Below the pieces are notes generated by a model. The model had not been told where the DNA came from and ran no database searches. It saw only the letters and a program-made list of their open reading frames with translations. DNA of 64,000 bases from the sequence record PZ674596.1. One strand, given 5' to 3'. Of this stretch, positions 12,112-58,010 are shown piece after piece; the first letter of the stretch is position 1, and every line of letters starts with the position of its first letter. This DNA comes from a phage. The translations under genes and the position numbers were made by a program.

Positions 12112-12158
12112 ATGCAAACTGACTGCGGCACGTTCCGCAGTCATATTTCATAGTCGTC

Positions 12159-12691
12159 ACCGCTGACAGCATACACAATCAACTACCGCTGATAGCATAT
12201 CGAGAGTCTATCTCACCGCTCACAGCATACTTTACTCGATTTTTTACCGCTGACAGCATACTTAAGAAATTGCATGAATAATGTGTCCCGGTATGGGTAT
12301 AACCAGAACAAAATTACCGCTGGCAGCATACGAATGTCTGACATATACCATTAATTACCGCTGATAGCATATCCAAACAAAAATTCCTCAATAAAACACC
12401 GCTGACAGCATACGTTCTATCAGGGAGTAGCAGGCAATAAATGCCTTTCACTACAAGCAATCAGCGCAATAGCAATAGAATGTTAGTGAGCGCAAACCTA
12501 TATGGAATGCACTCTTCGAGGTTAGTAACCACTGGGGAGGTATGACAGAGCATTGAGTGGTGATAGATGATTTACCGCTCACAGCATACGTTCATCTCAC
12601 TATACCGCTGGTAGCATATCTTTAACCGTTCACAGCATACTTTTCAGAAAAATAGCCGCTGATAGCATACATTTCACCGCTGACAGCATAT
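12159..12691. repeat. iteron array: 12 direct copies of 16-bp ACCGCTGACAGCATAC (incA-like, downstream of repA)
   Basis: Copies start near 12159, 12185, 12215, 12246, 12316, 12357, 12398, 12574, 12604, 12625, 12655, 12676; all in one orientation, 1-2 mismatches each. Confidence 0.85.
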
Positions 12692-13785
12692 CAAAGCAGT
12701 TTGAGACTATTGGAAAGGATCTCAATCATCTTGATATTTTCAGGCGTCAAATTCTGCGAAAGTTCGGTTATCTTGTTGATAATGTTCTGTTTGGCATCAA
12801 TTTCCCCAGCTTTCTCATCTGGTTTTTTGGGTTCGATGTCTTCAGGTTTTGGCGGTGCGACTTTGAGTTTTGGATTGCGGCTGTGAATCTGGATATAGAT
12901 CGACCGCCCACGCTTAATCTCGCTGTATTCGAGATAGCCCAAATCTTGGAGAGCTTTTAAGCCGTTACGTATAGTCTGATTCTGCGAGCTGACATTCCTG
13001 CTACTCAAATTGAGTCGCGCACGCAATCGAGCAAGCGATACCGGCGCAGGCTTGGTTGGAAGACTTTCGATGAAGGTGTACAGAGCCTGTGCTGTTTCTT
13101 TGCGTGGTAGCTTATTGATAACCTTTAACTGCAAAAGAACCTTATGGTCAAAGCGATATAGTTCGGCCAGCTTCGGTTCTGCATAGAACACCACCGTATC
13201 TTTCTGCTCGTTGTAGTCCACGCTATTGATGAGGTGCACCATCAGAAGCGAGATCTTGTTAGAGCCGTCGACGTTCTTTTCTTCATACGTTCTCTGGAAA
13301 GACAGAGTTGTACGCATGATCTTCAAAAGACTGTTTGTAAGCCGGTCGCGGAGTGTTTTGCGGATCTGTGACGATGGATAGCCACAAAACTTAGCAAATT
13401 TCGTGATGCTTAACTCGACACGACCGTTAGGTTCGCCGTATTCTGCCAGCGAACGCACAACGCCCACCCACGTTTTGAAATCATGATCCATGTCGAGACG
13501 AGGACCGGTTATCTTGATATCGGAATAGCCTTCAGAACGGGCTACTTCGAGCTGGACAAGCTCCTTTGAAGCATCGATCTCATTTGGCTTGTTACGTTTA
13601 CTGTATTTTGTTCCCTTAAGCGTGGGGACGAACAACCCCAGTCGCATCAACGCAATTGGTTGGACTGTATTGTTGCTATTAGGGACAAGTTCCCCTGTGT
13701 ACAATTCAAGGGAACCTTCTTCAAAGTTGTCGATGTTATCTTCTACTTCTTTGTTATTTTTACCTTTTTTATTTTTTGTGGACAT
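12691..13785 (-). CDS. repA: plasmid replication initiator RepA (P1 RepA / RepFIB-like)
   Basis: 364 aa from ATG 13785 (the table's N-terminal 40 aa is read-through of the iteron region); motifs SNNTVQPIALMRLG, DIKITGPRLDMD, LYTFIESLP, HSRNPKLK match my recollection of P1 RepA; flanked by iterons on both sides. Confidence 0.8.
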   Translation of the reverse strand: MSTKNKKGKNNKEVEDNIDNFEEGSLELYTGELVPNSNNTVQPIALMRLGLFVPTLKGTKYSKRNKPNEIDASKELVQLEVARSEGYSDIKITGPRLDMDHDFKTWVGVVRSLAEYGEPNGRVELSITKFAKFCGYPSSQIRKTLRDRLTNSLLKIMRTTLSFQRTYEEKNVDGSNKISLLMVHLINSVDYNEQKDTVVFYAEPKLAELYRFDHKVLLQLKVINKLPRKETAQALYTFIESLPTKPAPVSLARLRARLNLSSRNVSSQNQTIRNGLKALQDLGYLEYSEIKRGRSIYIQIHSRNPKLKVAPPKPEDIEPKKPDEKAGEIDAKQNIINKITELSQNLTPENIKMIEILSNSLKLL

Positions 13786-13805
13786 GTGGACACCTTTGTC
13801 ATTCA

Positions 13806-13907
13806 ACCGCTGACAGCATACTTGATTTGCCGCTGACAGAATACCAAAAACAGTTGGCAGCATACGGTGAACCGCTGACAGACTATCAATTACCGCTGAC
13901 AGCATAC
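13806..13907. repeat. upstream iterons (4 full + 1 half copy), incC/origin-like
   Basis: Same 16-bp iteron near 13806, 13829, 13871, 13892 plus half-site GGCAGCATAC near 13856. Confidence 0.75.
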
Positions 13908-13947
13908 ATGAACATGACTTCAGACCAGTCGTGGCGCGGGTTACAGC

Positions 13948-14020
13948 GATCGGGGATCTTATTTGATCTATATAAGGATCTATCTATGGATCTCTTTATT
14001 AGGATCTATCCTGTGGATAT
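13948..14020. promoter_or_regulatory. origin-like region: six GATC sites in ~60 bp plus DnaA-box-like TGTGGATAT
   Basis: GATC at about 13948, 13955, 13965, 13977, 13989, 14003; CCTGTGGATAT at 14010-14020; next to the iterons. Confidence 0.55.
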
Positions 14021-43115: not shown

Positions 43116-43505
43116 ATGGGCTTCCCTTCTCCTGCGGCGGATTATGCTGAGAGCCGTATTTCTCTTGATCAGCAGATAATTAGACATCCTTCAGCGACCT
43201 ACTTCATGAGAGCGGCTGACAGCCATCATCGTGAGGGAATATTGCAGGGCGCATTGCTGGTGGTCGATTCCTCACTTACCCCGGTTGATGGTTCTCTGCT
43301 TGTATGCGCTCTGGATGGGGAATATCGCGTAAAAAGATACCGGAAGTATCCACGTCAGCATCTGGAGGATTTAAGAACTGGTAAGAAGGAAGCATTGCCA
43401 AAGGATGACGATGGATGCACGGGCAGCAATGCCGTGTTTGGTGTGATCACTCACATTATCAACGACGCAAGAAGTGGCGAGTTTGATGATTGTCCCGTGA
43501 TGTAG
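43116..43505 (+). CDS. humD: UmuD'-like protein lacking the N-terminal arm (HumD-like)
   Basis: 129 aa beginning MGFPSPAADY, i.e. at the UmuD Cys24-Gly25 processing site; Ser and Lys of the catalytic dyad alignable (ADSH; VKR); P1 HumD has the same form. Confidence 0.75.
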   Translation: MGFPSPAADYAESRISLDQQIIRHPSATYFMRAADSHHREGILQGALLVVDSSLTPVDGSLLVCALDGEYRVKRYRKYPRQHLEDLRTGKKEALPKDDDGCTGSNAVFGVITHIINDARSGEFDDCPVM

Positions 43506-43516
43506 GAGAACTGATT

Positions 43517-43542
43517 AGGCGGTGCATTGCACCGCCTTTTTA
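43517..43542 (+). terminator. Rho-independent terminator between convergent humD and mrp
   Basis: AGGCGGTGCA-tt-GCACCGCCT followed by TTTTT. Confidence 0.7.
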
Positions 43543-44643
43543 TCACACTGCGCGGAATGCGATTTCGCCAGGTATTACTTCACCTTGCCAATACATTTGG
43601 GCAGCAACGCGATCTGCGAGGTCACGATAAATAGCTGTAAATTCGCTATCTGGACGACTAATAACGGTTGGTGTTCCGTTATCCAGATCTTCACGAAGAG
43701 AGATATGAAGTGGCATTTGGCCTAACAACTGCGTGTTGTATTTCTCGGCCAGTTTCTGTGCGCCACCGGTGCCAAAAATTGGCTCGTGATGACCGCAGTT
43801 ACTGCAAATATGCACACTCATGTTTTCAACGATACCCAGTACCGGCACTTCGACTTTTTCGAACATCACAATGCCTTTCTTCGCATCGATCAGCGCGATG
43901 TCTTGCGGCGTAGTTACCACAACCGCACCAGTTACAGGAATGTTCTGCGCCAGCGTCAACTGAATATCACCAGTGCCCGGCGGCATATCGAGAACAAGAT
44001 AGTCCAGATCAGGCCACAATGTTTCCTGCAACATCTGCATTAACGCCTTGCTCGCCATCGGTCCACGCCACACCATTGCATTGTCGTCGGTGACCAGATA
44101 ACCAATAGAGTTGGTTGCCAGGCCATGAGACATGATAGGTGCCATGTGAGTACCGTCAGGTGAGGTTGGACGTTGGTTTTCCGCGCCCAGCATGGTTGGA
44201 ATTGATGGACCATAGATATCGGCATCCAAAATACCAACTTTCGCACCTTCAGCAGCCAACGCCAGTGCCAGGTTTACCGCCGTGGAGGATTTACCCACGC
44301 CGCCCTTGCCTGAGCTGACGGCGATAATGTTCTTAACGCCATTAATGCCTGGTTGGTTTTTGACGCGCTTAAGCGTGGCAATGTTGTACGACAGCTTCCA
44401 GTCAATAGCCTTTGCGCCAGTGATACGGAGCAGATCACCACTACATTGCTCTTTCAGGTCTTCAAAAGGCTTATTCCACACGAAAGGCATGATTAGTTCG
44501 ACATGCAGTGTGTCATCCATCAACGCAACATGGTGTAACGCTTTAAGCGTAGTCAGGTTGTGTTTCAGGGTTGGGTGCTGAAAATTAGCCAGCGTACCGG
44601 CTACCATTGCTCTCAGGGCATCCGGCGATTTGGACTCGCTCAT
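43543..44643 (-). CDS. mrp: Fe-S cluster carrier ATPase Mrp/ApbC (host-type)
   Basis: 366 aa; deviant Walker A SGKGGVGKSS; matches my recollection of enterobacterial Mrp. Confidence 0.9.
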   Translation of the reverse strand: MSESKSPDALRAMVAGTLANFQHPTLKHNLTTLKALHHVALMDDTLHVELIMPFVWNKPFEDLKEQCSGDLLRITGAKAIDWKLSYNIATLKRVKNQPGINGVKNIIAVSSGKGGVGKSSTAVNLALALAAEGAKVGILDADIYGPSIPTMLGAENQRPTSPDGTHMAPIMSHGLATNSIGYLVTDDNAMVWRGPMASKALMQMLQETLWPDLDYLVLDMPPGTGDIQLTLAQNIPVTGAVVVTTPQDIALIDAKKGIVMFEKVEVPVLGIVENMSVHICSNCGHHEPIFGTGGAQKLAEKYNTQLLGQMPLHISLREDLDNGTPTVISRPDSEFTAIYRDLADRVAAQMYWQGEVIPGEIAFRAV

Positions 44644-44800
44644 CCCGTCTCCTTTATTTTAATTTGCGCAATTGTCGCCTTGTAGTGTACTCCAGCTACG
44701 ACATTTAATCATTTATGAGAAATGCTGTTATCACATGGCAGACATAAGGCCATTTTGTTACTATCAAGCCCCTTTTCACTACAAAGAAGTAATGCCTACT

Positions 44801-46834
44801 ATGACCCAAGTCGCGAAGAAAATTCTGGTGACGTGCGCGCTGCCGTACGCTAACGGCTCAATCCACCTCGGCCATATGCTGGAGCACATCCAGGCTGATG
44901 TCTGGGTTCGTTACCAGCGAATGCGCGGCCACGAGGTTAATTTCATCTGTGCCGACGATGCCCACGGTACGCCGATCATGTTGAAAGCACAGCAGCTTGG
45001 TATCACACCGGAGCAGATGATTGGCGAAATGAGTCAGGAACATCAGACTGATTTCGCAGGCTTTAACATCAGCTATGACAACTATCACTCGACGCACAGC
45101 GAAGAGAACCGTCAGTTGTCCGAGCTTATCTATACTCGCCTGAAAGAGAACGGTTTTATTAAAAACCGCACCATCTCTCAGCTGTACGACCCGGAAAAAG
45201 GCATGTTCCTGCCGGACCGTTTTGTAAAAGGCACATGCCCGAAATGTAAAGCGCCGGATCAATACGGCGATAACTGTGAAGTCTGCGGCGCTACTTACAG
45301 CCCGACTGAACTGATCGAGCCGAAATCGGTAGTTTCTGGTGCTACGCCGGTAATGCGTGATTCCGAACACTTCTTCTTTGATCTGCCTTCTTTCAGCGAA
45401 ATGTTGCAGGCATGGACCCGCAGCGGTGCGTTGCAGGAGCAGGTGGCAAACAAAATGCAGGAGTGGTTTGAATCTGGCCTGCAACAGTGGGATATCTCCC
45501 GCGATGCGCCGTACTTCGGTTTTGAAATTCCGAACGCACCGGGCAAATATTTCTACGTCTGGCTGGACGCGCCGATTGGCTACATGGGTTCCTTCAAGAA
45601 TCTGTGCGACAAACGCGGCGACACTACCAGCTTCGACGAATACTGGAAGAAAGACTCCACCGCCGAGCTGTACCACTTCATCGGTAAAGATATCGTTTAC
45701 TTCCACAGCCTGTTCTGGCCTGCCATGCTGGAAGGCAGCAACTTCCGCAAGCCGACCAACCTGTTTGTTCACGGCTATGTGACGGTGAACGGCGCGAAGA
45801 TGTCCAAGTCTCGCGGCACCTTTATTAAAGCCAGCACCTGGCTGAATCATTTTGACGCCGACAGCCTGCGTTACTACTACACTGCGAAACTCTCTTCGCG
45901 CATTGATGATATCGATCTCAATCTGGAAGATTTCGTTCAGCGTGTGAATGCCGATATCGTTAACAAAGTGGTTAACCTGGCCTCCCGTAATGCAGGCTTT
46001 ATCAACAAGCGTTTTGACGGCGTGCTGGCAAGCGAACTGGCTGACCCGCAACTGTACAAAACCTTTACTGATGCCGCTGAAGTGATTGGCGAAGCATGGG
46101 AAAGCCGCGAATTTGGCAAAGCTATCCGTGAAATCATGGCACTGGCTGACCTGGCTAACCGCTATGTTGATGAACAGGCTCCGTGGGTGGTGGCGAAGCA
46201 GGAAGGACGCGATGCCGATCTGCAGGCGATTTGCTCTATGGGCATTAACCTGTTCCGCGTGCTGATGACGTACCTGAAACCGGTACTGCCGAAACTGACT
46301 GAACGTGCAGAAGCATTCCTGAATACAGAACTGACCTGGGATGGTATCCAGCAACCGCTGCTGGGCCATAAAGTGAATCCGTTCAAGGCACTGTATAACC
46401 GTATCGATATGAAACAGGTGGAAGCACTGGTGGAAGCATCCAAAGAAGAAGTGAAAGCCACAGCTGCACCGGTAACTGGCCCACTGGCTGACGACCCGAT
46501 TCAGGAAACCATCACCTTTGACGACTTCGCCAAAGTTGACCTGCGTGTGGCGCTGATTGAAAACGCGGAGTTTGTCGAAGGTTCTGACAAACTGCTTCGC
46601 CTGACGCTGGATCTCGGTGGTGAAAAGCGTAATGTCTTCTCAGGCATCCGTTCCGCTTATCCAGATCCACAGGCACTGATTGGTCGTCACACCATTATGG
46701 TGGCTAACCTGGCACCACGTAAAATGCGCTTCGGTATCTCTGAAGGCATGGTGATGGCTGCTGGCCCCGGCGGGAAAGATATCTTCCTGTTAAGCCCGGA
46801 TGCTGGTGCTAAACCTGGCCACCAGGTTAAGTAA
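44801..46834 (+). CDS. metG: methionyl-tRNA synthetase (host-type)
   Basis: 677 aa from ATG 44801 (table ORF has spurious 43-aa extension); [16 protein letters not shown], Zn knuckle CPKCK..CEVCG; near-identical to enterobacterial MetG as I recall it. Confidence 0.95.
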
Positions 46835-48075: not shown

Positions 48076-48189
48076 AACATTGATAATGGCGGTCAAAATT
48101 TGATTCTTTTCTATAAGAATCCGTTGATCGCCACTACTCCCCTTCCATACCTGCAATCATACCCTTAAATATCAATAGGTTATGGTTGT

Positions 48190-48935
48190 TTATACAAATA
48201 AGAAAACAACTAAATAACAGATCAACGAAACGTCAACGCTTTCACCCGATTTGGTCTAAAAAATTGACGTTTTCACACATCACTTCTTATACCCGTAACT
48301 CTACGCAGCAGACAGCGCCACAGCGTCCAATTTTCACCACAGACGACCCAACACACTACCAACAAAAACACACGCTCAAAATCGCTCCCGTTGCGTTACA
48401 CAACCATATAAACAACTTATTTTCAGGCATAACAAAACAACTAAATAACACACATGCCATTCCCAAAAACAACCAACCTCTTTATGGCAGGCTACCGAAA
48501 AGACCCACCTCTTCTCCCCAGGCTACCGGACAACCAACCTAACTTTCACAGGCAATCCGAAAACATTCATACGCGCGATACCCACGACACGCCATTCCCC
48601 AAACAGCGAAGAAACACCAGAATCACTGAAACCCCAACGAAGCCTGTAACCGCAAGGATTCTCTCAATCCCAAAAGACACGAAACAGAACAATCACGGGA
48701 AACGCCATTACCCAATACACGAATAACTACAAAAGCCTTTCACACACTCCAGACAAACAACTCAAACACAATAACGAAAGGAATCGCCCACCTGCCATTA
48801 CTCCATACACGGAGAAGAACAATCACCAAAACGACGAGAACACCCCATAGAAGAACCACCGCAAAACGAACGAAACCACATACACCGACAGAGAAAACAG
48901 CACACCCAATTCACCAACAGAAATAGTCGCCGTAT
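48190..48935 (+). repeat. G-depleted A/C-rich low-complexity tract with dispersed direct repeats
   Basis: ~750 bp with almost no G on plus strand; 17-mer AAAACAACTAAATAACA twice (near 48199 and 48434); GCCATT(C/A)C(C/T)C-type repeats near 48456, 48591, 48704, 48794. Confidence 0.7.
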
Positions 48936-49127
48936 AGAACATTCTGGAAGGAGTGAGCATTAACGCCTATAGAGAGGTTGAGACAGATAAAACACAACAT
49001 GTATAGCGAAGAAGCCAGGTATGTATAAGTGGGGAGGGAAGGAGGGGTGTCGCCTCCTTTTTCGTATTTATTCAACTCCTGATTTTATCCCCCGTAACAC
49101 CCCTACGGTCAGCCTTCGGTCCATACA

Positions 49128-49266
49128 GGGAAAAGGCTGCATCCCGCTACAGAAACGGCTGGGTTGCCTTCGGGGAACGGCTGGGGATTTTCAGGGAAAC
49201 GGTCGAGTTGCCTGTGTGGATTTCGGGAAAAGGCTCGATGCCGGTTCAGGAACGGTGGCGTACCGG
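49128..49266 (+). repeat. tandem imperfect repeats RGGAAAMGGCT (6 copies, ~21-31 bp period)
   Basis: GGGAAAAGGCTGCATCCCGC, AGAAACGGCTGGG, GGGGAACGGCTGGGG, AGGGAAACGGTCGAG, GGGAAAAGGCTCGATGCCGG, AGGAACGGTGGCG; related 20-mers at 52353-52395. Confidence 0.7.
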
Positions 49267-49616
49267 TATAGCGAGAGGGAGAGTTGCGGCTACCCACCTG
49301 TAATGTGCGGGAAGAAGAGAGGCGCTCACGTAGGCGGACTTGCTTACCGCTGGATTCCCTCTGAATGCCCAGCTACAGCGTAATTGTGCCAGACAGCCAA
49401 CGGGTCACAATCGATTTCAGTAGGTTTTTGGGGAGAGGATTACTCTGCCACCAGCCACTTTCGGCCACTAAATCAGAATAATGTAAAAAGTGTACTCGGT
49501 ACTGAACCTGAAAACTCACTGCCAAAACCACATTCACCGGAATAAAATCCTTTTTCGCCTGTGCGTTATTGCGATAATAACACCATCAAGAAAACATGTT
49601 GTTTAAGGATTGCTTT

Positions 49617-49946: not shown

Positions 49947-50099
49947 CCCCAACCAAAGCCAGCATTGCTGGCTTAATTTCTCTATAGCCGCAGGGAAGAA
50001 CCTGCATATCGCTCATGCACCTGATCAATATGCTTTGTAGCCGTTTTCTTACTGGTATTATTTACGCCATTGAGAAAACAAGTTGTTTACGGAGTTGTA

Positions 50100-50970: not shown

Positions 50971-51050
50971 AAGCCCGATAACAATTTGTTTTCTGCCTTA
51001 TCTGATTTGTGAAAATGATTTCACTGAAGCAAGTTAATAAGGAAACCATC

Positions 51051-51425: not shown

Positions 51426-51775
51426 ATATGGGCGATTTCAAGAAACGCCTGAAGGAAAGAGCCGAGATGGTCAGAAAGCAAAACGCCTCTTCTGTCATCA
51501 GATACGCAAGGCAGTTTAGTCGCAACAACAAATCAGTTGAGGAAAAGATCCTTAGCGTAATCGTGCGATAATTATTAAGGCCACCAGCATTGGTGGTCTT
51601 AAATGACCATCCTGTTTCCCTCAGGCTAATAACACCAACCTCTTACCTCCAGGCAACCGACAAACCCACCTGTTCCCGTCCGGCTACCGCAACTTTCCAC
51701 TTTGACGCCTTATTCGTACAACGATAATTAACGCCAACAAGAAAACAATTTGTTATTTACGATAAGGAATTAATC

Positions 51776-52258
51776 ATGAATTTTATCGCTACTGTAAACG
51801 CACCCGCACATGGCAATATCGCTGTAACGTTCTCTGACATTGAAAAACGAGTACTTGGTGCATGGCGCGACAATGAGACGGTAGAACTGTCAGCACAAGA
51901 AAAATGCATTATTGCACGCGACATCATTGGCAATCGTCGTTACTCGAGGGTATTTGAGAAAGCATATGTGGTAAATTCTGGATTCGGAACGTTCGTCTTT
52001 CCGGTGCGCTCCGGGCGATTCTGCCAGTCCAAGCTGATTGAGTTCGCTACGCAGATTTCTTTCTGGATTAAAACTCAATCGTCGTTCAAATTTTCCGACG
52101 ATGAAGCAGTATCGCAGGGGATGCGGATCGCCAACAATGCGATTAAATGCAAAAACATTACGTATACCGCTGGCGTTGATACATGGAAACTGTTTTGCGC
52201 TAACTTTATGCTGAATGTATACGCAAGCAACCGCATCCACATCCTTGATGGCGTGTAA
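51776..52258 (+). CDS. hypothetical protein
   Basis: 160 aa; ATG after AAGGAATTAATC. Confidence 0.5.
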   Translation: MNFIATVNAPAHGNIAVTFSDIEKRVLGAWRDNETVELSAQEKCIIARDIIGNRRYSRVFEKAYVVNSGFGTFVFPVRSGRFCQSKLIEFATQISFWIKTQSSFKFSDDEAVSQGMRIANNAIKCKNITYTAGVDTWKLFCANFMLNVYASNRIHILDGV

Positions 52259-52267
52259 CTGAGAAGA

Positions 52268-52288
52268 GGGCCAGAAACGGCCCTTTAT
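52268..52288 (+). terminator. Rho-independent terminator
   Basis: GGGCC-agaaac-GGCCC followed by TTTAT. Confidence 0.6.
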
Positions 52289-52511
52289 CTATAGCCACCA
52301 GCTGCCGCAGGGAAATTTTCAGAAGCGGCGAGGAACGTATTCATGAGCCGACGGGGGAACGGCCAGGATTTTTTCGGGAAACGGCTGCATTCGCCTTTGT
52401 GTAGAAAAAACATCGGGAAGCTGGTGGAATCCAACCAGCGGTTGTCGGACAGGTGAGCGGGGAAAATTATGATGACTTTCGTCACCTGAGACATCCAGAT
52501 TTCTTTCGTAG

Positions 52512-52557
52512 CATAATCACATACGTGATTAAGTGGTGTGATTAAGTGAAAAATCAC
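52512..52557. promoter_or_regulatory. two adjacent operator-like palindromes (GTGATTA / TAATCAC family)
   Basis: TAATCAC-atac-GTGATTA and GTGATT-aagtgaaa-AATCAC, with direct repeat GTGATTAAGTG x2. Confidence 0.45.
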
Positions 52558-52804
52558 GCGCACATAATACGCGAGCGGATACAGAACAAAACAAAATACC
52601 GATCCGCACCGACAAATAAGCGCGGATCACATAGCAAGACTAAAAGCCAATGATTAACCATACTCTATAGCGCAATATAACGCGTTTTAAGCGCGTTAAT
52701 GTGTTAAGTAATGGGCATGTACTGGTAAGGATATAAAAGCGCGTCTATGGCGTTATTTTGGCGCTTATTTTTATGTTGTTGGAGTGAGTTAAAGACAATA
52801 AAAA

Positions 52805-52871
52805 ACGCGCCATCAATGGCGCGTTATTGTGGAAGTATTGGAAACGAAAAAAGCGCCCATAGTGGGCGCTC
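52805..52871 (-). terminator. tandem hairpin terminators downstream of minus-strand island genes
   Basis: AACGCGCCAT-ca-ATGGCGCGTT and AGCGCCCA-tag-TGGGCGCT, each with A-run on plus strand (T-run on minus); second hairpin recurs near 53347. Confidence 0.55.
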
Positions 52872-52875
52872 GATT

Positions 52876-53106
52876 TTATTTGTGTAAACTGATTTTAAAT
52901 CCCATTTCTACGAACGCTTTTAACATTAAAAATATATCAGCGTCGTTCACGTCTGCTTTTTTTCGCTCCTGGTCGCTCAATAAGTCAATTTTGCGCGTCG
53001 TTTCATCTATAAGCTCGACTGCGCGCCCAGCGTAACCAGCGATCCCAGCGATGCGATTAACATAATATTCATTATGGACGTTAACGCCAGCGATAAGAAC
53101 AAACAT
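52876..53106 (-). CDS. small hypothetical protein
   Basis: 76 aa; RBS AAGGAG 6 nt upstream of ATG. Confidence 0.45.
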   Translation of the reverse strand: MFVLIAGVNVHNEYYVNRIAGIAGYAGRAVELIDETTRKIDLLSDQERKKADVNDADIFLMLKAFVEMGFKISLHK

Positions 53107-53126
53107 GATTAAGCTCCTTAAAAAAA

Positions 53127-53330
53127 TTAAATAGAATTTTGAAGTTTTCCGATTAATGCGCTTAAACGTAAGTATTCACGTTTGCGCTTGCAATCTCGCT
53201 TGCTGTTAAGCAAATCAGAAAACGTAAAATTTAATTGGTCGCGTTGCGCGATCAAATCATCGATTAATTCCAGTTTATAAGCGCGATACTTTGCGCGATA
53301 TTCTGCGCGGATCTTGTCATAGCTGACCAT
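53127..53330 (-). CDS. small basic hypothetical protein
   Basis: 67 aa from ATG 53330 with RBS AAAGGAG; table N-terminal extension covers a hairpin. Confidence 0.4.
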   Translation of the reverse strand: MVSYDKIRAEYRAKYRAYKLELIDDLIAQRDQLNFTFSDLLNSKRDCKRKREYLRLSALIGKLQNSI

Positions 53331-53378
53331 TTTTAAAGCTCCTTTAAAGCGCCCATAGTGGGCGCTTGATTCCATTAA

Positions 53379-54029
53379 TTACGCTTTGAAAGCATCAGCT
53401 AAATAATTGTAGAAATCATTTTTAATGAAGCGATATTGCTGAGTACCAGCTTTTGCGCTCCCAGCTCCTTTGACTTTCTCAACAAGTCCGAGACGTTCGC
53501 AAAGATTGATCAACTGGTTGGCTTGAGTATAGCCAGCGTCCAATTTAATTTCGCACGCTTTTTTAGCTTCATTCATTAAATCGAAAACAGCGCCATTAGT
53601 GAACGTGTCGATCTCGTCGTTAATCATATCGATTAAAGCGAATACACGAGATCCTGACATATCAGCGACGGAATAAACGCATTTACCAGCTTTAATGGAT
53701 TTAACCAGATAAACCAGTTTTTCCAGTGAATAACTATTAGTCATTGCATCACGGAAAAATACTTCTGGCGCTTGTTTGCTTGCTTTAATCGCATAGTAGA
53801 AAACAGAGCATAATTTTTCGTCTTCAACAGCGTTTACAACGTTGTTGATGAAGTAAGCAAGTTTAGTGGTAGCAGCTTGCATATTTGCTTTATCTGCTTT
53901 GGTGTGCGTACCATTTTTATAATGTTCGTTATATGTTTGAGTTGCCAGATCTGCTTTTTCTTTTAATTCATTTGTTACAACACGCGCAGCTTCAACGATG
54001 GATTTTTTAGATAAGATAATATTGGTCAT
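53379..54029 (-). CDS. hypothetical protein
   Basis: 216 aa from ATG 54029 with RBS AGGAA; low-GC coding region. Confidence 0.5.
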   Translation of the reverse strand: MTNIILSKKSIVEAARVVTNELKEKADLATQTYNEHYKNGTHTKADKANMQAATTKLAYFINNVVNAVEDEKLCSVFYYAIKASKQAPEVFFRDAMTNSYSLEKLVYLVKSIKAGKCVYSVADMSGSRVFALIDMINDEIDTFTNGAVFDLMNEAKKACEIKLDAGYTQANQLINLCERLGLVEKVKGAGSAKAGTQQYRFIKNDFYNYLADAFKA

Positions 54030-54322
54030 GGTTTTATTCCTTACAAAAATTAAAATGAATTTATTTTTTACTGTCGTTAGCCAGTTCGCTTTCGACGAGT
54101 TCAATTATCGATACGCAAAAAAAGATTGCAAGTGTTTTTTTTAGTTTTTTGCAGGGACGAAAGTCCTAGAAATAAAAGCGAGATCGTCGAAGGTGTTCCC
54201 TAAATAAATAATTAATTCCGGCTTATAACCTTATATGTTTATACGGAGTAGAATTGGAGGTGTATTTAATAAATGGCATTTAAAAAAATAACCGGACTTA
54301 GCCGGTTATTACCCTTATACAT

Positions 54323-54619
54323 TTATCGGACTGATTCTACAGCCTTACGATTGGTGTCAAATAACGCATCAACGAACTGCACAGAAGAGTTGTTCGATTC
54401 ACATGGTTCATAATTTTCCACTTGTTCACATAGTTGAGCGGTCTTACCAATGTTTATCCCTAATTTTACAGCTGCTGAAAGTTTAAACATGCAAACTGGT
54501 ACATTCTGAGACGTTGAGCATACGTCATTCATCAGCGACTGAATAATTGCGATATCATCCTTTGCATTGGCCGAAATTGAGTAAACTAAAAATAAAGATG
54601 TCAATAGTATCGATTTCAT
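54323..54619 (-). CDS. small secreted Cys-rich protein
   Basis: 98 aa; signal peptide MKSILLTSLFLVYSISANA; six Cys in mature part. Confidence 0.5.
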   Translation of the reverse strand: MKSILLTSLFLVYSISANAKDDIAIIQSLMNDVCSTSQNVPVCMFKLSAAVKLGINIGKTAQLCEQVENYEPCESNNSSVQFVDALFDTNRKAVESVR

Positions 54620-54622
54620 AAC

Positions 54623-55144
54623 TCAAAACGGTAAAATTCGTTCAACCCAATCGAAGAATACAAGTGTTTTTCTGCCGTCTTCTAACTTAAGAGTGACCTG
54701 GCAAGCATCAACGCCTCTTGATATCCCTTCTATTTCACGACCGTCTGCCATGTAGACCCTTATAGATTTGCCGTTTTGGTAAGCCTGACGACATATCTTA
54801 AAAAAGTCACGACGTGATGGCTGATTGTCAACATAGTCTGGATGTATTGTTAGCCTACCTTTGAACTCGCGAGCAATGCCATCGATTACACCTGATTCAA
54901 TTGTGCTAATGCGCTCAAGTGGGAGTCTTATACGATTTTCTTTATCATATGGAAGCGGGCATAAATCTAGCTTATTGCGGGAAGGCATTGTCCCCTGAAC
55001 GTACATGCAAAACACCTGACCGTCTTCAAGCGTGACTCTTACAGGAATGTTGTTTTTCCGCCAGAACATAAGTATGTTTTCAGCATGTTCGTAGTCTCGT
55101 GGCCAGACTTCTGCTGGAATGCCGTAGGTGATGTCTTTAACCAT
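54623..55144 (-). CDS. hypothetical protein with internal tandem repeat of ~80-aa domain (weak Sm/Hfq-like signature)
   Basis: 173 aa; halves share R..N.IPVRVTLEDGQV / GKSIRVYMADGREIEG pattern; ends 3 nt before the secreted-protein gene. Confidence 0.45.
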   Translation of the reverse strand: MVKDITYGIPAEVWPRDYEHAENILMFWRKNNIPVRVTLEDGQVFCMYVQGTMPSRNKLDLCPLPYDKENRIRLPLERISTIESGVIDGIAREFKGRLTIHPDYVDNQPSRRDFFKICRQAYQNGKSIRVYMADGREIEGISRGVDACQVTLKLEDGRKTLVFFDWVERILPF

Positions 55145-56169: not shown

Positions 56170-57303
56170 TTAATTGGCGTTTTCGTTCTTCTCTTTTTTG
56201 CTAATTTCATCACATGCAAGGTTCATTATGTCTATGTTTTCTTGTTTTTGAAGGTTGCCGACAATTTTTTGGCGCAATTCATAAAATCGCTCGCGTGGTA
56301 TAGCTTCCTTGTTGCCGCTGATGTGAAGTATTGCGTGACAGCTAGGGCAGACGGCAATCAGATCTGTTTTTGGGTTCACGCTTCGTGCACCTTCGCCTTG
56401 TGAAAGTGGGATGATGTGGTGAGCGTGTAGCAGCGTTTTCGTTTCTTTACCGTCAATTTCCTTGCCGTATATTTCCGACATCGTTCTGCAACATAGTTGA
56501 CACCTGTAGTCTGCGTTTGCCAGAACGTCATTCCTTAACCCGGATACGCGGCTACGATGTTGCGACTGGATTAATCTTGTTTCGCCCTCTATATATTCCT
56601 CAACTTCTTCTTTCTGGAGGTCGTAGCTGATTTCTTCTTGAGTTACGTTGTCTTCTGCTTTGGCTGAGACTGCATGAATCTCTTTCTTATTCAACGAGAA
56701 AGGTGATTTGAGAGCATCAGCACTGTTTTGCCCTCTTGAATGTTGTGATTTTAGAGCAAGATTGTAAATCTCTTTTAATTTGACATTTTTTTTGTTTGTT
56801 CTAAAGAACTTTCTGCTCTCTACTTGTGAGATAATCCCTGATTCTATATATTGAATTAACACACGAAGAAAATGTTCTATAGATTTTTTACTTTTGAATG
56901 AAAAGGAATAGCCGACTTTCTTTCTCAACTCGTTTTCGCTAAAGAACTCTTTCAGATTTTCGTCGTCAGTCAGGTTAATGGTTGCACCTGCCCAGGTTGA
57001 AGCTTCTACAATTTCAGGAATAACCTCTTGGTCGCCAAGCTGATTGTTTATTTCATCCAGCATTTTAAAGACTGTCAATATTGGATACGGATTCGTCACC
57101 AGACCGTTAGAGGATTTCGTTCTAGGCCCATTCTTTTTTATAATGATGGGGTGCTGTTGAGAAGTTTTCTTTAATTGTAAATAATAAAGGTTTATATTAT
57201 TATTCGTTGATATACCTGCCGGTTTTATCAAGGATAATTTTTCATCACATGCAATATCATCTATTATATTTCTTAGGTCACACGTTTTTATAAATTGACG
57301 CAT
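56170..57303 (-). CDS. HNH-nuclease-domain protein with unknown N-terminal domain
   Basis: 377 aa; C-terminal CQLCC...HAHHIIPLS...CPSCH HNH signature; low GC; RBS GGAGGA lies in a CCTCCGAA/TTCGGAGG hairpin. Confidence 0.6.
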   Translation of the reverse strand: MRQFIKTCDLRNIIDDIACDEKLSLIKPAGISTNNNINLYYLQLKKTSQQHPIIIKKNGPRTKSSNGLVTNPYPILTVFKMLDEINNQLGDQEVIPEIVEASTWAGATINLTDDENLKEFFSENELRKKVGYSFSFKSKKSIEHFLRVLIQYIESGIISQVESRKFFRTNKKNVKLKEIYNLALKSQHSRGQNSADALKSPFSLNKKEIHAVSAKAEDNVTQEEISYDLQKEEVEEYIEGETRLIQSQHRSRVSGLRNDVLANADYRCQLCCRTMSEIYGKEIDGKETKTLLHAHHIIPLSQGEGARSVNPKTDLIAVCPSCHAILHISGNKEAIPRERFYELRQKIVGNLQKQENIDIMNLACDEISKKEKNENAN

Positions 57304-57443
57304 ATATCCTCCGAATTTCTTCGGAGGCGGAGCCTACAAATATCGTTCAGCCAATCAAGAAATTTTTTCAGCCGGAGGTGTACATTTCAAAAAATGTGAC
57401 GAATGTCACATGCAGGTGCTCTCATACACCTGCATGTAGACTA

Positions 57444-58010
57444 TTAATCATTCAATAATCTATATTTTCTTTTGATTAAATCTTCACCTTTTTTGGTGAA
57501 CACAAAACCAAATTGCGATTTTTTGTTTAGACGAAGGACTCTGTTATCCAACGCATCGGTTGATGGAATCAATGTTTGATCATCTATCCAATTAAGTAGC
57601 GTAAGAAAGTTCAGCAGCCTCAACGTTGTTGTGCGAAGCTCTTTCGATATATTTTCAATGCTGGCAATTCGTCTTTCTTTTTTCTCAGGTGGTACAGATA
57701 ATTGTTCTTGAGGTTTCGTGGATAGATAATCAATTTCGTTTGCTGCATCGAATGATATGTGTGGCGTAATTTTGCTAAAAAAGCCTTTCGCTGACTCACT
57801 TGATAATAAACCAGACCTATTCATATCGTTTGTTATTCTGTACAGGAGTGGACTGTGTTTCATTTCAGGATAACGTTGATAAAAGTTAAGCAATTCAAAA
57901 GCAGCATTAGCGCCAACAAGAAAATCAGAAGGATCGCTGACTTTCCAGAAAGAATGATTTTTCTTAGCGCCAGTGGTGTCAACAAATGATAATTCTTTTA
58001 ACCAACTCAT
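57444..58010 (-). CDS. hypothetical protein
   Basis: 188 aa from ATG 58010 with RBS AAGGAG; inverted repeat GATGTGCTC-N13-GAGCACATC overlaps the RBS. Confidence 0.45.
   Translation of the reverse strand: MSWLKELSFVDTTGAKKNHSFWKVSDPSDFLVGANAAFELLNFYQRYPEMKHSPLLYRITNDMNRSGLLSSESAKGFFSKITPHISFDAANEIDYLSTKPQEQLSVPPEKKERRIASIENISKELRTTTLRLLNFLTLLNWIDDQTLIPSTDALDNRVLRLNKKSQFGFVFTKKGEDLIKRKYRLLND

What the first reader, a model, noticed from the sequence alone, without database searches (positions are those of the whole stretch)
52505..52875. Palindrome-dense boundary region with stacked hairpins
Within ~370 bp there are two GTGATTA/TAATCAC operator-like palindromes, a GCGGAT..ATCCGC repeat and at least three GC-stem hairpins, one of which (GCGCCCATAGTGGGCGC) recurs at ~53347. 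It sits at the left edge of the low-GC island and may be a genetic-switch or insulation region.
Basis: seen in the sequence. Interest (0 to 1): 0.4.

Follow-up and report, generated by a model that had tools for sequence, protein, structure and literature searches.

The report
Stacked terminators bounding swappable phage genes
The palindrome-rich stretch is real: it is mostly a stack of transcription stop signals in a conserved gene-free spacer of an SSU5-type phage-plasmid, and the hairpin that recurs is a lineage-wide boundary around small genes that are gained and lost between relatives.

Summary
All the named palindromes are at the stated coordinates, and hairpin density is far above shuffled controls (RNA folding z about -4.7 on both strands).

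The window is an SSU5/pHCM2/pMT1-type phage-plasmid. The finding lies in a 617-bp non-coding gap (52259-52875) between convergent genes. A gap of about 580-650 bp sits at this place in all close relatives and about 610-900 bp in deep ones.

Its right and middle parts carry three strong canonical intrinsic terminators in tandem on the minus strand (T1 52871-52851, T2 52825-52804, T3 52629-52600), plus weaker ones. That is about ten times the window's background density.

The recurring hairpin (GCGCCC-loop-GGGCGC) is not a switch. In 76 of 80 relatives found through a neighbouring protein it brackets [ribosome site-small ORF-hairpin] units present in 0, 1 or 2 copies. Internal copies are followed by a ribosome-binding site and the last copy by a U-run. 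Its loop is often inverted. The closest analogues are T4-type PeSL motifs and morons.

The GTGATTA palindromes are allele-specific and their function is open. No conserved operator-repressor arrangement was found.

The left part of the same gap holds 22-bp-phased repeats, paired with a second array 3.1 kb upstream. These are unexplained.

The parts
52268..52290 (+). Terminator hairpin of the rightward 160-aa gene (GGGCC-AGAAAC-GGCCC, then TTTATCT). Left boundary of the gap.
   Evidence: Sequence. Relatives carry GGGGC...GCCCC, a compensatory stem change. Stem paired in 52/52 sequences.
52273..52385 (+). Array B: 3-4 direct copies of the RGRAAMGG(CTGG) unit at 52273, 52321 (variant), 52355 and 52377. 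The last two are 22 bp apart. Outside the finding's coordinates but in the same gap.
   Evidence: The block TTTTCGGGAAACGGC is kept in four of the five deep relatives examined and with one substitution in L025. Array B is present in SSU5 and all relatives scanned.
52488..52517 (+). Weak sigma-70-like promoter match (GAGACA-18-CATAAT). Its -10 overlaps palindrome 1.
   Evidence: 9/12 match; the scan found fewer promoter-like sites than in shuffles, so this is weak evidence.
52514..52531 (.). Perfect palindrome TAATCAC-ATAC-GTGATTA (7-bp arms). Found only in the window-type allele.
   Evidence: Folds at -16.4 kcal/mol together with palindrome 2, z = -3.8.
52538..52557 (.). Inverted repeat GTGATT-N8-AATCAC. 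The core TGTGATTA(T/A)GTGAA is shared by both alleles.
52557..52573 (-). T4: weak terminator-like hairpin CGCGUAUUAUGUGCGCG followed by UGAUUUUU.
   Evidence: Energy only -10 kcal/mol, z = -2.2.
52600..52629 (-). T3: strong intrinsic terminator built from the ATCCGC/GCGGAT repeat (11-bp stem, then GGUAUUUUGUUUUGUU). Window-type allele only.
   Evidence: (-17.3 kcal/mol, z = -4.6).
52678..52698 (.). Hairpin TAACGCG-TTTTAAG-CGCGTTA. Lies in a block partly conserved in deep relatives (TAAAACGC..TTATTGTGGGTAAT).
   Evidence: z only -1.5.
52741..52765 (+). Weak plus-strand terminator-like hairpins followed by TTATTTTT.
   Evidence: Does not fold better than shuffles (z = -0.3).
52804..52825 (-). 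T2: second tandem intrinsic terminator (AACGCGCCA-UUGA-UGGCGCGUU, then UUUUUAUUGU).
   Evidence: -16.3 kcal/mol, z = -4.5. Stem essentially invariant (51-52 of 52 sequences) while the loop varies freely among relatives.
52851..52871 (-). T1, copy 1 of hairpin HP: AGCGCCCA-CUA-UGGGCGCU, then UUUUUCGUUUC. It starts 5 nt after the stop codon of the 76-aa gene. Terminal terminator of the leftward operon and right boundary of the gap.
   Evidence: -15.5 kcal/mol, z = -4.55. At least one exact copy of the hairpin in 76 of 80 protein-ascertained relatives. The last HP is followed by a U-run in nearly all of them.
52876..53106 (-). 76-aa cassette gene (phrog_1585, function unknown).
53127..53330 (-). 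67-aa cassette gene (phrog_6145). The source label 'MIT family metal ion transporter' is implausible for a 67-aa protein.
53348..53366 (-). Copy 2 of hairpin HP, between the stop of the 216-aa gene (53379) and the ribosome site and ATG of the 67-aa gene. Followed by UUUAAAGGAGC, so it has a weak U tract.
   Evidence: -15.1 kcal/mol.
53379..54029 (-). 216-aa conserved gene (phrog_1513) that precedes the cassette slot in all relatives. Helical N-terminal domain plus C-terminal winged helix.

Best explanation
The region is the middle and right part of a conserved 617-bp non-coding buffer (52259-52875) where a rightward module of small genes meets a leftward operon. The leftward operon runs FljA-like regulator, 98-aa ORF, 216-aa gene, 67-aa gene, 76-aa gene.

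Most of the stacked hairpins are Rho-independent terminators oriented to stop leftward transcription. T1 lies 5 nt after the last stop codon, T2 follows 46 nt later, and T3 lies about 200 nt further on. This keeps the leftward operon from reading antisense into the rightward genes. T1 may also act on the plus strand. This step is inferred from sequence and energy, not measured.

The recurring hairpin (HP, GCGCCC-loop-GGGCGC) has a second role that comparison shows directly. It is the constant boundary of a variable slot. Units of [ribosome site-small ORF-HP] sit in 0, 1 or 2 copies between the 216-aa gene and the gap. HPs inside the array are followed by a ribosome site and a poor U tract, which should allow read-through. 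The last HP is followed by six U and should terminate.

It is inferred that cassettes are gained, lost and exchanged by homologous recombination between HP copies, as proposed for PeSL motifs of T4-like phages.

The GTGATTA palindromes are a lineage-specific elaboration of a shorter shared core. Their function is not established.
For: Context:
- 100% identity to E. coli plasmid p4_0.2, and similarity to SSU5, Cyrano, PhiR41_1 and 780 plasmids including Y. pestis pMT1.
- A gap of about 580-650 bp with no conserved annotated feature lies between the same two convergent genes in every annotated relative.
- ORFs inside the gap break by frameshift even in close relatives.

Terminators:
- 5 minus-strand and 3 plus-strand terminator-like sites in the gap, against 0.3-0.4 per 617 nt in the window overall.
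- In 52 unique relatives the minus-strand mean is 3.8 (range 2-6) and the plus-strand mean 2.3.
- T1, T2 and T3 fold at -15.5, -16.3 and -17.3 kcal/mol (z about -4.5). Each is followed by a U-rich tract: six U directly after T1 and T2, and GGUAUUUUGUUUUGUU after T3.
- The T2 stem is essentially invariant and its loop varies.

Cassettes:
- The layouts seen are HP-p67-HP-p216, HP-p76-HP-p216, HP-p216, HP-p76-p67-HP-p216, HP-p76-HP-p76-HP-p216 and gene-free tandem HPs.
- In 80 loci found through the protein p216, not through the hairpin, 76 carry at least one exact HP.
- Similarity breaks exactly at the HP edges. Internal HPs are followed by a ribosome site and ATG, and the terminal HP by TTTTTTCGTTTC.
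- The HP is exact in relatives whose flanking proteins are only 31-62% identical. Those deep loci (L015-L036) were first found through the hairpin itself; the p216-ascertained deep relatives L171-L175 (61-62% identity) also carry it exactly.
- The loop is inverted (CTA to TAG) in about 20 loci, at either copy.
Against: No transcript data were available, so terminator function and direction are inferred only.

Three to five terminators in a row is more than simple operon termination needs. T3 and T4 exist only in the window-type allele. They could instead end a transcript born inside the gap.

The HP stems show no covariation at all. Comparative data therefore cannot separate selection on RNA structure from gene conversion or from a sequence-specific binding site.

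About 300 bp of conserved blocks in the gap (CCGCAGGGAAA, TTTTCGGGAAACGGC, CCAGATRGC, TAAAACGC..GGTAAT) are not explained by termination.

No recombinase or promoter accompanies the HP, so the recombination mechanism is inferred from comparison alone.
Confidence: 0.65

Rival explanations
1. Operator or genetic switch. The GTGATTA/TAATCAC palindromes are operators for a dimeric repressor controlling a promoter in the gap. The stacked hairpins insulate that switch.
For: There is a perfect 7-4-7 palindrome and a second inverted repeat 25 bp away. A weak plus-strand promoter match has a -10 (CATAAT, 52512-17) overlapping palindrome 1. The rightward small genes upstream show a similar layout of promoter-like unit followed by a palindrome (AACAAnTTGTT).
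Against: No gene lies downstream in either direction and no adjacent repressor gene exists. The sites are allele-specific, the spacer changes from 8 to about 16 nt, and one lineage lacks them. The motif is not reused elsewhere in the 64 kb. The promoter scan found fewer sites than in shuffles.
Confidence: 0.1
2. Non-coding RNA gene or genes. The gap encodes one or more small RNAs. One candidate is a plus-strand RNA from about 52524 ending near 52775 or 52880. Another is a minus-strand RNA born after T2 and ended by T3. Some of the 'extra' terminators would belong to these RNAs.
For: T3 is a strong terminator about 200 nt beyond T1 and T2, with no gene to terminate. Folding is strong on both strands. 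Blocks are conserved in deep relatives. The left part of the gap has a few compensatory pairs compatible with a plus-strand structure (52289-92/52343-47). Sub-threshold Rfam hits to Hfq-type sRNAs overlap T1 and T2.
Against: No Rfam family reaches threshold. No convincing conserved promoter was found (and by eye). Y. pestis RNA-seq lists two intergenic pMT1 sRNAs and neither maps to the homologous gap. The helices of the finding region show no covariation. T3 is absent from the other allele.
Confidence: 0.2
3. Protein-bound cis-acting DNA element. The gap, together with array A 3.1 kb upstream, would be for example the lytic replication origin or another site organised by 22-bp-phased repeats. 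The AT-rich hairpin-dense half would act as an unwinding or insulating zone.
For: Array A has six RGRAAMGG units at 22, 22, 22, 31 and 22 bp spacing (49129-49255). Array B has 3-4 units in the gap. All are on one strand, and only about 13 hits are expected in the whole window on both strands. SSU5 has the same two arrays with identical spacing and no other cluster in the ~100 kb of its 103-kb genome that was scanned. Deep relatives keep both arrays 2.7-3.8 kb apart. These repeats differ from the plasmid RepA iterons at 12.1-13.9 kb. The element encodes its own replisome, and no lytic origin is annotated. Two distant arrays recall P4 ori/crr (from memory).
Against: No initiator gene was identified next to either array. 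p160 has a confident but unmatched fold and p216 shows only a generic winged helix. No good DnaA boxes are present. The arrays lie mostly outside the finding's coordinates. The repeats could equally be activator sites or RNA motifs. GC skew gives no origin signal here.
Confidence: 0.15
4. Chance or neutral junk: a palindrome-rich AT-rich spacer with no selected function.
For: Parts of the central segment differ strongly between alleles.
Against: Hairpin density and folding energy are far beyond shuffles. The gap and its hairpins are kept across Escherichia, Klebsiella, Salmonella, Enterobacter, Citrobacter and Yersinia. They are also kept in relatives with 31-62% protein identity.
Confidence: 0.02

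Closest known systems
Tandem or bidirectional Rho-independent terminators at convergent gene ends
   Same: GC-rich 8-11-bp stems, 3-8-nt loops and a U-run directly after the stem. T1 is 5 nt after a stop codon. An A-run precedes and a T-run follows T1, so it could act in both directions.
   Different: Three strong and two weaker sites are stacked over 400 nt in a gap of about 600 bp that is conserved across genera. That is more than ordinary operon ends need. Two of them are allele-specific.
PeSL (promoter-early stem-loop) motifs of T4-like phages (PMC2839356, PMC4122927)
   Same: A short conserved stem-loop/terminator is repeated at the borders of small variable ORFs. Indels and replacements between close relatives have their junctions at the motif, which implies recombination between copies.
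   Different: No early promoter is part of the unit. Internal copies are followed directly by a ribosome site. There is a single slot with 0-2 cassettes rather than many hyperplastic regions. The host element is a temperate siphovirus phage-plasmid. The loop inversion polymorphism has not, to my knowledge, been described for PeSLs.
Morons (extra genes with their own terminator inserted between phage genes; Hendrix and colleagues, from memory)
   Same: Small accessory ORFs of unknown function, each ending with its own terminator, present or absent between otherwise collinear relatives.
   Different: The cassettes have no own promoter. They appear to be co-transcribed with the upstream gene through a leaky internal hairpin. 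All of them share the same terminator sequence.
Integron gene cassettes with attC hairpins
   Same: The [ORF + imperfect palindrome] units lie in tandem, in one orientation and without promoters.
   Different: No integrase is nearby. HP is a perfect 7-8-bp stem with a 3-nt loop, not a 57-141-nt attC with extrahelical bases. It doubles as a terminator.
Iteron arrays of plasmids and phage-plasmids (P1 incC/incA, P4 ori/crr; from memory)
   Same: Applies only to the left part of the gap plus array A: direct repeats phased at 22 bp in two clusters a few kb apart.
   Different: No initiator gene is adjacent. The element's true RepA iterons are a different sequence 36-40 kb away. Function is untested.
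Hairpin-loop 'minute inversions' in chloroplast non-coding DNA (Kelchner and Wendel, from memory)
   Same: The loop of a perfect stem flips to its exact reverse complement repeatedly and independently, while the stem stays unchanged.
   Different: Here it happens in a phage terminator hairpin present in two or more copies per genome.

Membership tests
Rho-independent (intrinsic) terminator | GC-rich stem of at least 5 bp with a short loop | tested here: met
   T1 has 9 bp with a 3-nt loop, T2 9 bp with a 4-nt loop, T3 11 bp with an 8-nt loop. Energies are -15.5 to -17.3 kcal/mol with z about -4.5.
Rho-independent (intrinsic) terminator | U-rich tract directly 3' of the stem on the transcribed strand | tested here: met
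   T1 has UUUUUUCGUUU, T2 UUUUUUAUUGU, T3 GGUAUUUUGUUUUGUU. HP copy 2 has only UUUAAAGG, which is weak.
Rho-independent (intrinsic) terminator | Position just downstream of a gene on the same strand | tested here: met
   T1 begins 5 nt after the stop codon of the 76-aa gene (52876). T2 to T4 have no gene of their own.
Rho-independent (intrinsic) terminator | RNA 3' ends or termination in vivo or in vitro | not testable with these tools
   No transcript-end data are held. Y. pestis RNA-seq tables list no feature here.
PeSL-like recombination boundary | The same short stem-loop repeated at the borders of variable small ORFs | tested here: met
   HP flanks p67, p76, both, two p76 paralogues, or nothing.
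PeSL-like recombination boundary | Indel or replacement junctions between relatives coincide with the motif | tested here: met
   The sequence on the inner side of each HP changes with the cassette, while the outer side stays constant.
PeSL-like recombination boundary | Composite unit includes an early promoter | tested here: not met
   No sigma-70-like site lies next to either HP copy. Internal copies are followed by GGAG and ATG.
Integron cassette array | Adjacent tyrosine-recombinase integrase and attI | tested here: not met
   Pfam and PHROG scans of ORFs from 43 to 60 kb found no integrase.
Integron cassette array | attC architecture (R''-L''/L'-R' arms, extrahelical bases, 57-141 nt) | tested here: not met
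   HP is a 19-nt perfect hairpin.
Repressor-operator switch | Dyad-symmetric sites overlapping a promoter that drives a gene | tested here: inconclusive
   The dyads are present. Only a 9/12 promoter match overlaps them, and no ORF lies downstream.
Repressor-operator switch | Cognate regulator gene adjacent, and sites conserved or co-varying with it | tested here: not met
   The nearest regulator is 2 kb away in the convergent operon. The sites are allele-specific and partly deleted in one lineage. Co-variation with a regulator was not tested.
Iteron-type origin | At least 3 direct repeats phased at about 22 bp | tested here: met
   Array A has 6 units and array B 3-4 units. Both lie mostly outside the finding's coordinates.
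Iteron-type origin | Adjacent initiator gene, DnaA boxes and an AT-rich unwinding element | tested here: inconclusive
   No initiator was recognised. TGTGATTAA is only an 8/9 match to a DnaA box, judged by eye. The right half of the gap is AT-rich.
Known small RNA family | Match to an Rfam covariance model at gathering score | tested here: not met
   There are 0 hits at gathering score in the whole window. The best sub-threshold hits score 20-26 bits against cut-offs of 41-56.

The most novel reading that the evidence does not exclude
The roughly 600-bp gap and its partner array 3.1 kb upstream form a so-far undescribed cis-acting element of the SSU5/pHCM2/pMT1 phage-plasmid lineage. It could be the lytic replication origin, or a control locus bound by an unknown protein at 22-bp-phased GGGAAACGG repeats. 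The terminator stack would shield this element from transcription. The invariant, loop-flipping hairpin would be an active recombination site that lets the lineage swap small accessory genes.
Probability: 0.2. Interest if true: 0.6.

Novelty: new variant of a known kind. Interest (0 to 1): 0.38.

Why it matters
SSU5-type phage-plasmids are common in clinical Enterobacteriaceae and include Y. pestis pMT1 and S. Typhi pHCM2-type plasmids. Their regulatory and cis-acting DNA is essentially unannotated.

This work does three things:
- It assigns a function to an unannotated conserved gap: a terminator stack that separates two convergent programmes.
- It identifies a defined hot spot, bounded by one 19-nt hairpin, where small accessory genes are exchanged. 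This helps annotation, typing and engineering (a natural insertion site).
- It flags phased repeat arrays that are candidates for a missing lytic origin or regulator site.

As a stand-alone finding, terminators at a convergent junction are ordinary.

Tried and rejected
- **Coding potential of the gap.** The 92-aa minus-strand ORF (partly annotated by PGAP in p4_0.2) and the 46- and 68-aa plus-strand ORFs break by frameshift or merely follow nucleotide conservation in relatives. Rejected.
- **tRNA/tmRNA.** None found.
- **Rfam.** Nothing at gathering score. Only sub-threshold Hfq-sRNA look-alikes, driven by the terminators.
- **Published sRNAs.** Y. pestis sR082 and sR083 on pMT1 map elsewhere, near ymt and near an IS. 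The LF82/Cyrano paper gives no data on this gap.
- **cos/pac idea.** GGAAACG resembles the lambda cosB R-site core, from memory. However, the SSU5 terminase genes lie about 8 kb away and nothing else supports it. Not pursued.
- **Plasmid origin.** The RepA replicon with 15 ACCGCTGACAGCATA iterons is at 12.1-13.9 kb, so the gap is not the plasmid ori.
- **p216 as an initiator.** AlphaFold pLDDT is 81.5. Only weak generic winged-helix matches were found (Foldseek E > 0.03) and there was no PDB sequence hit.
- **p160.** AlphaFold pLDDT is 91 with no structural match. Dead end.
- **CsrA-sponge idea for the GGA-rich left part.** The putative stems are not kept in deep relatives; only the sequence motif is. 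Left open, not supported.
- **Covariation.** The stems of T1 and T2 are invariant or nearly so, so covariation is uninformative.
- **Cassette genes outside the lineage.** p76 and p67 homologues occur only in SSU5-like phages.
- **Genome-contig scan.** It gave only 5 close relatives.
- **One relevant 2026 preprint** on SSU5-like copy-number changes could not be opened.
Full report
**1. What and where**

The window is an SSU5/pHCM2/pMT1-type phage-plasmid.
- Bases 52260-52880 are 100% identical to E. coli plasmid p4_0.2 (NZ_CP023851.1).
- They are 95-99% identical to Escherichia phages CMS-2020a, PhiR41_1 and Cyrano.
- Weaker matches reach SSU5 and 780 plasmids of Klebsiella, Escherichia, Enterobacter, Yersinia (pMT1), Salmonella and Citrobacter.

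The finding (52505-52875) lies inside a 617-bp gap, 52259-52875. On the left is a rightward 160-aa gene (51776-52258). On the right is a leftward 76-aa gene (52876-53106). Every annotated relative has a gap of about 580-650 bp between the same two convergent genes. It carries no conserved annotated feature: PGAP calls a 69-aa ORF in p4_0.2 and SSU5 has a 123-nt ORF (SSU5_118), and neither recurs in other records. ORFs within the gap are not conserved; they break by frameshift even in close relatives.

**2.

- The hairpin scan (perfect stem >=6 bp, nested register variants included) scored 12 in the region, from 5 distinct hairpins, against a mean of about 1 in 500 dinucleotide shuffles. The region is one of the two richest 371-bp windows in the 64 kb.
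- Folded as RNA, both strands are about 4.7 standard deviations more stable than shuffles.
- GCGCCCATAGTGGGCGC occurs exactly twice, at 52853 and 53349, with 0.09 expected.
- GC content falls to 0.36-0.40 from 53 to 58 kb.

**3. Most hairpins are minus-strand intrinsic terminators**

The consensus scan finds 10 terminator-like sites in 51500-54500 against 3.1 +/- 1.8 expected. Eight of them lie in 52471-52871.

On the minus strand:
- T1 (52871-52851) has a 9-bp stem and a 3-nt loop, folds at -15.5 kcal/mol and is followed by UUUUUUCGUUU. It starts 5 nt after the stop of the 76-aa gene.
- T2 (52825-52804) folds at -16.3 kcal/mol and is followed by UUUUUUAUUGU.
It folds at -17.3 kcal/mol and is followed by GGUAUUUUGUUUUGUU.
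- All three have z about -4.5. T4 (52573-52557) and a site at 52486-52471 are weak. The plus-strand candidates at 52741-52765 are no better than shuffles.

With my own implementation of the same criteria, the gap holds 5 minus-strand and 3 plus-strand sites, against 0.3-0.4 per 617 nt in the window overall. In 52 non-identical gaps from relatives the minus-strand count averages 3.8 (range 2-6) and the plus-strand count 2.3.

T1 and T2 are present in all 52 close-relative gaps. The T1 stem is invariant and the T2 stem nearly so (51-52 of 52), while the T2 loop varies freely. T3 and T4 belong only to the window-type allele.

**4. The recurring hairpin bounds a gene-cassette slot**

An exact-pattern search found the hairpin (HP) in 75 viral contigs. 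What lies on its gene side differs: the 76-aa gene, the 67-aa gene, a pMT1-type paralogue, the 216-aa gene directly, or further HP copies at a 44-47-nt period.

Mapping the flanking proteins gave these layouts, read left to right on the window's plus strand from the rightward p160 gene across the gap to the leftward p216 gene:

| Layout | Loci |
|---|---|
| p160 / HP / p67 / HP / p216 | 19 |
| p160 / HP / p76 / HP / p216 | 17 |
| p160 / HP / p216 | 11 |
| p160 / HP / p76-p67 / HP or degenerate HP / p216 (the window's own layout) | 16 |
| HP / p76 / HP / p76 / HP / p216 | 2 |
| Gene-free HP-HP(-HP) arrays | several |

To remove ascertainment bias I fetched 80 loci through the protein p216 instead of through the hairpin. 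Of these, 76 carry at least one exact HP, normally 17 nt after the p216 stop.

Read in the sense of p216, the unit is [HP]-[tttaaaGGAGc or tagttttaaGGAt]-ATG-small ORF-[HP]. Internal HPs are followed by a ribosome site and a poor U tract. The last HP is followed by TTTTTTCGTTTC in nearly all loci. Sequence on the inner side of each HP changes with the cassette, while the outer side stays constant.

The HP is exact in relatives whose p160 and p216 are only 31-62% identical to the window's. The loop is CTA in most loci. In about 20 loci it is the exact reverse complement, TAG, at either copy. Other loop variants also occur, and the stem never changes.

The cassette genes occur only in this lineage.

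In the window, the 31-nt repeat pair (52850-80 and 53346-76) brackets the p67 + p76 pair.

The comparison shows that HP is the boundary of a variable slot. That cassettes move by homologous recombination between HP copies is inferred, by analogy with PeSL motifs of T4-like phages (PMC2839356, PMC4122927) and with morons.

**5. The GTGATTA palindromes**

The central segment of the gap exists in two diverged alleles, and one E. coli plasmid (pTB212) is a mosaic of them.
- Both alleles share the core TGTGATTATGTGAA.
- The window-type allele carries an extra segment of about 24 bp that adds one inverted and one direct GTGATTA copy.
- The inverted repeat GTGATT..AATCAC is kept, but with a spacer of 8 versus about 16 nt.
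- A Klebsiella variicola-type lineage lacks the segment.

A weak promoter match (GAGACA-18-CATAAT, 52488-52517) overlaps palindrome 1. However, the promoter scan found fewer sites in the region than in shuffles. No gene follows and no repressor gene adjoins. The nearest regulator is an FljA-like protein (PF03614) at 54623-55144, in the convergent operon. I therefore do not accept 'operator of a genetic switch'. A flexible spacer fits a hairpin better than a fixed operator geometry. The function stays open.

**6. What termination does not explain**

Deep relatives keep several sequence blocks in the gap:
- CCGCAGGGAAA
- TTTTCGGGAAACGGC (window 52371-52385; exact in four of the five deep relatives examined, one substitution in L025)
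- CCAGATRGC
- TAAAACGC..TTATTGTGGGTAAT

The second block is the last unit of a direct-repeat array (array B: 52273, 52321 variant, 52355, 52377). A second array lies 3.1 kb upstream (array A: 49129, 49151, 49173, 49195, 49226, 49248, with spacing 22, 22, 22, 31, 22). All units are on the plus strand, although only about 13 matches to RGRAAMGG are expected in the whole window on both strands.

SSU5 has the same two arrays with identical spacing, and no other cluster in the ~100 kb of its 103-kb genome that was scanned. Deep relatives keep both arrays 2.7-3.8 kb apart. They bracket the rightward module of small genes.

They are not the plasmid replicon. That replicon sits at 12.1-13.9 kb, with 15 ACCGCTGACAGCATA iterons around a RepA-like ORF and GATC repeats.

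The putative stems around the units are not conserved, but the sequence is. This favours recognition by a protein, or of single-stranded nucleic acid. The neighbours gave no lead:
- p216 shows only a generic C-terminal winged helix.
- p160 has a confident but unmatched fold.

A lytic origin, an activator-site array or an RNA-protein platform all remain possible. I rate none above 0.2.

**7. Other negatives**

- No tRNA.
- No Rfam family at gathering score anywhere in the window.
- The Y. pestis RNA-seq catalogue places its two intergenic pMT1 sRNAs elsewhere.
- The LF82/Cyrano study reports lysogenic expression for the small gene CYRAN_109 upstream of the gap, but nothing for the gap itself.
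- The SSU5 terminase genes are about 8 kb away, so a packaging site here is not indicated.

**8. Verdict**

'Insulation' is the supported part of the interpretation and 'genetic switch' is not.

The best explanation has two parts (confidence about 0.65):
- a stack of leftward intrinsic terminators at a convergent junction;
- a family-wide terminator hairpin that also serves as the recombination boundary of a small-gene cassette slot.

This is a variant of known kinds (tandem terminators; PeSL- or moron-type modular exchange) in a lineage where it had not, as far as the searchable literature shows, been described. The phased repeat arrays are the most interesting loose end.

Noticed in passing
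window 48080-49020: About 900 bp of non-coding sequence that is C/A-rich and almost free of G and T on the plus strand (GC skew -0.35, AT skew +0.35 in the 48-49 kb bin). It has internal repeats of 22-41 nt. SSU5 has a sparsely annotated stretch at the same place.
   Followed up: partly
window 49129-49255: Array A: six plus-strand RGRAAMGG(CTGG) units spaced 22, 22, 22, 31 and 22 bp. It is followed by a conserved CCGGTATAG motif. The spacing is identical in SSU5 (91496-91615), and the array is present in deep relatives. It is the partner of array B in the gap.
   Followed up: partly
window 48467-48540 and 51601-51701: A second repeat family (units of about 28-30 nt, ACC(C/A)ACCT..CAGGCTACCG) occurs as 2 copies at 48.5 kb and 3 copies at 51.6 kb, upstream of the 160-aa gene.
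   Followed up: no
window 49549-49603, 50033-50087, 51700-51754 (and 50977-50990): A promoter-like unit of about 55 nt (TTGACG..GATAAT) ending in the palindrome AACAA(N)TTGTT is repeated just upstream of three or four of the small rightward genes. It looks like a shared promoter-operator cassette.
   Followed up: no
window 12153-14010: P1-like plasmid replicon: a RepA-like ORF (12691-13905, minus strand) flanked by 15 iterons ACCGCTGACAGCATA (11 on one side, 4 on the other), plus three GGATCTATC repeats containing GATC at 13967-14010.
   Followed up: partly
window 57308-57512: A second palindrome-dense stretch just upstream of an HNH-endonuclease ORF (56170-57303, minus strand). It includes CCTCCGAA-TTTC-TTCGGAGG, ATGTGAC-GAAT-GTCACAT and an 11-bp-arm palindrome ACATGCAGGTG..CACCTGCATGT.
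   Followed up: partly
related loci L097-L176 (hairpin 17 nt after the p216 stop and after each cassette): The 3-nt loop of the HP hairpin is flipped to its exact reverse complement (CTA to TAG) in about 20 of 80 loci, at either copy independently, with the stems unchanged. This is a recurrent 'minute inversion'.
   Followed up: partly
window 54623-55144 (minus strand): The 173-aa 'transcriptional repressor' is a full-length match to PF03614 (FljA, repressor of phase-1 flagellin, E = 3e-82). A sub-threshold Hfq-like hit covers its C-terminal part. FljA is known, from memory, to act on mRNA, so this regulator may be RNA-binding.
   Followed up: no
window 43116-46834: Unusual cargo next to the repeat-rich region: a UmuD-like peptidase S24 fragment, an Mrp/NUBPL-type ParA-like ATPase (366 aa), and a full-length methionyl-tRNA synthetase (about 680 aa).
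   Followed up: no
window 51776-52258 (plus strand): The 160-aa protein (phrog_1641) gives a confident AlphaFold model (pLDDT 91) with no Foldseek match in the PDB (best E = 0.33). It may be a new fold. It is conserved down to 31% identity, always just before array B.
   Followed up: partly
window 53127-53330 (minus strand): The 67-aa cassette protein carries the propagated label 'MIT family metal ion transporter / CorA' in SSU5 and PHROGs. That label is implausible for a 67-residue, charged, helical protein and is probably an annotation error.
   Followed up: no
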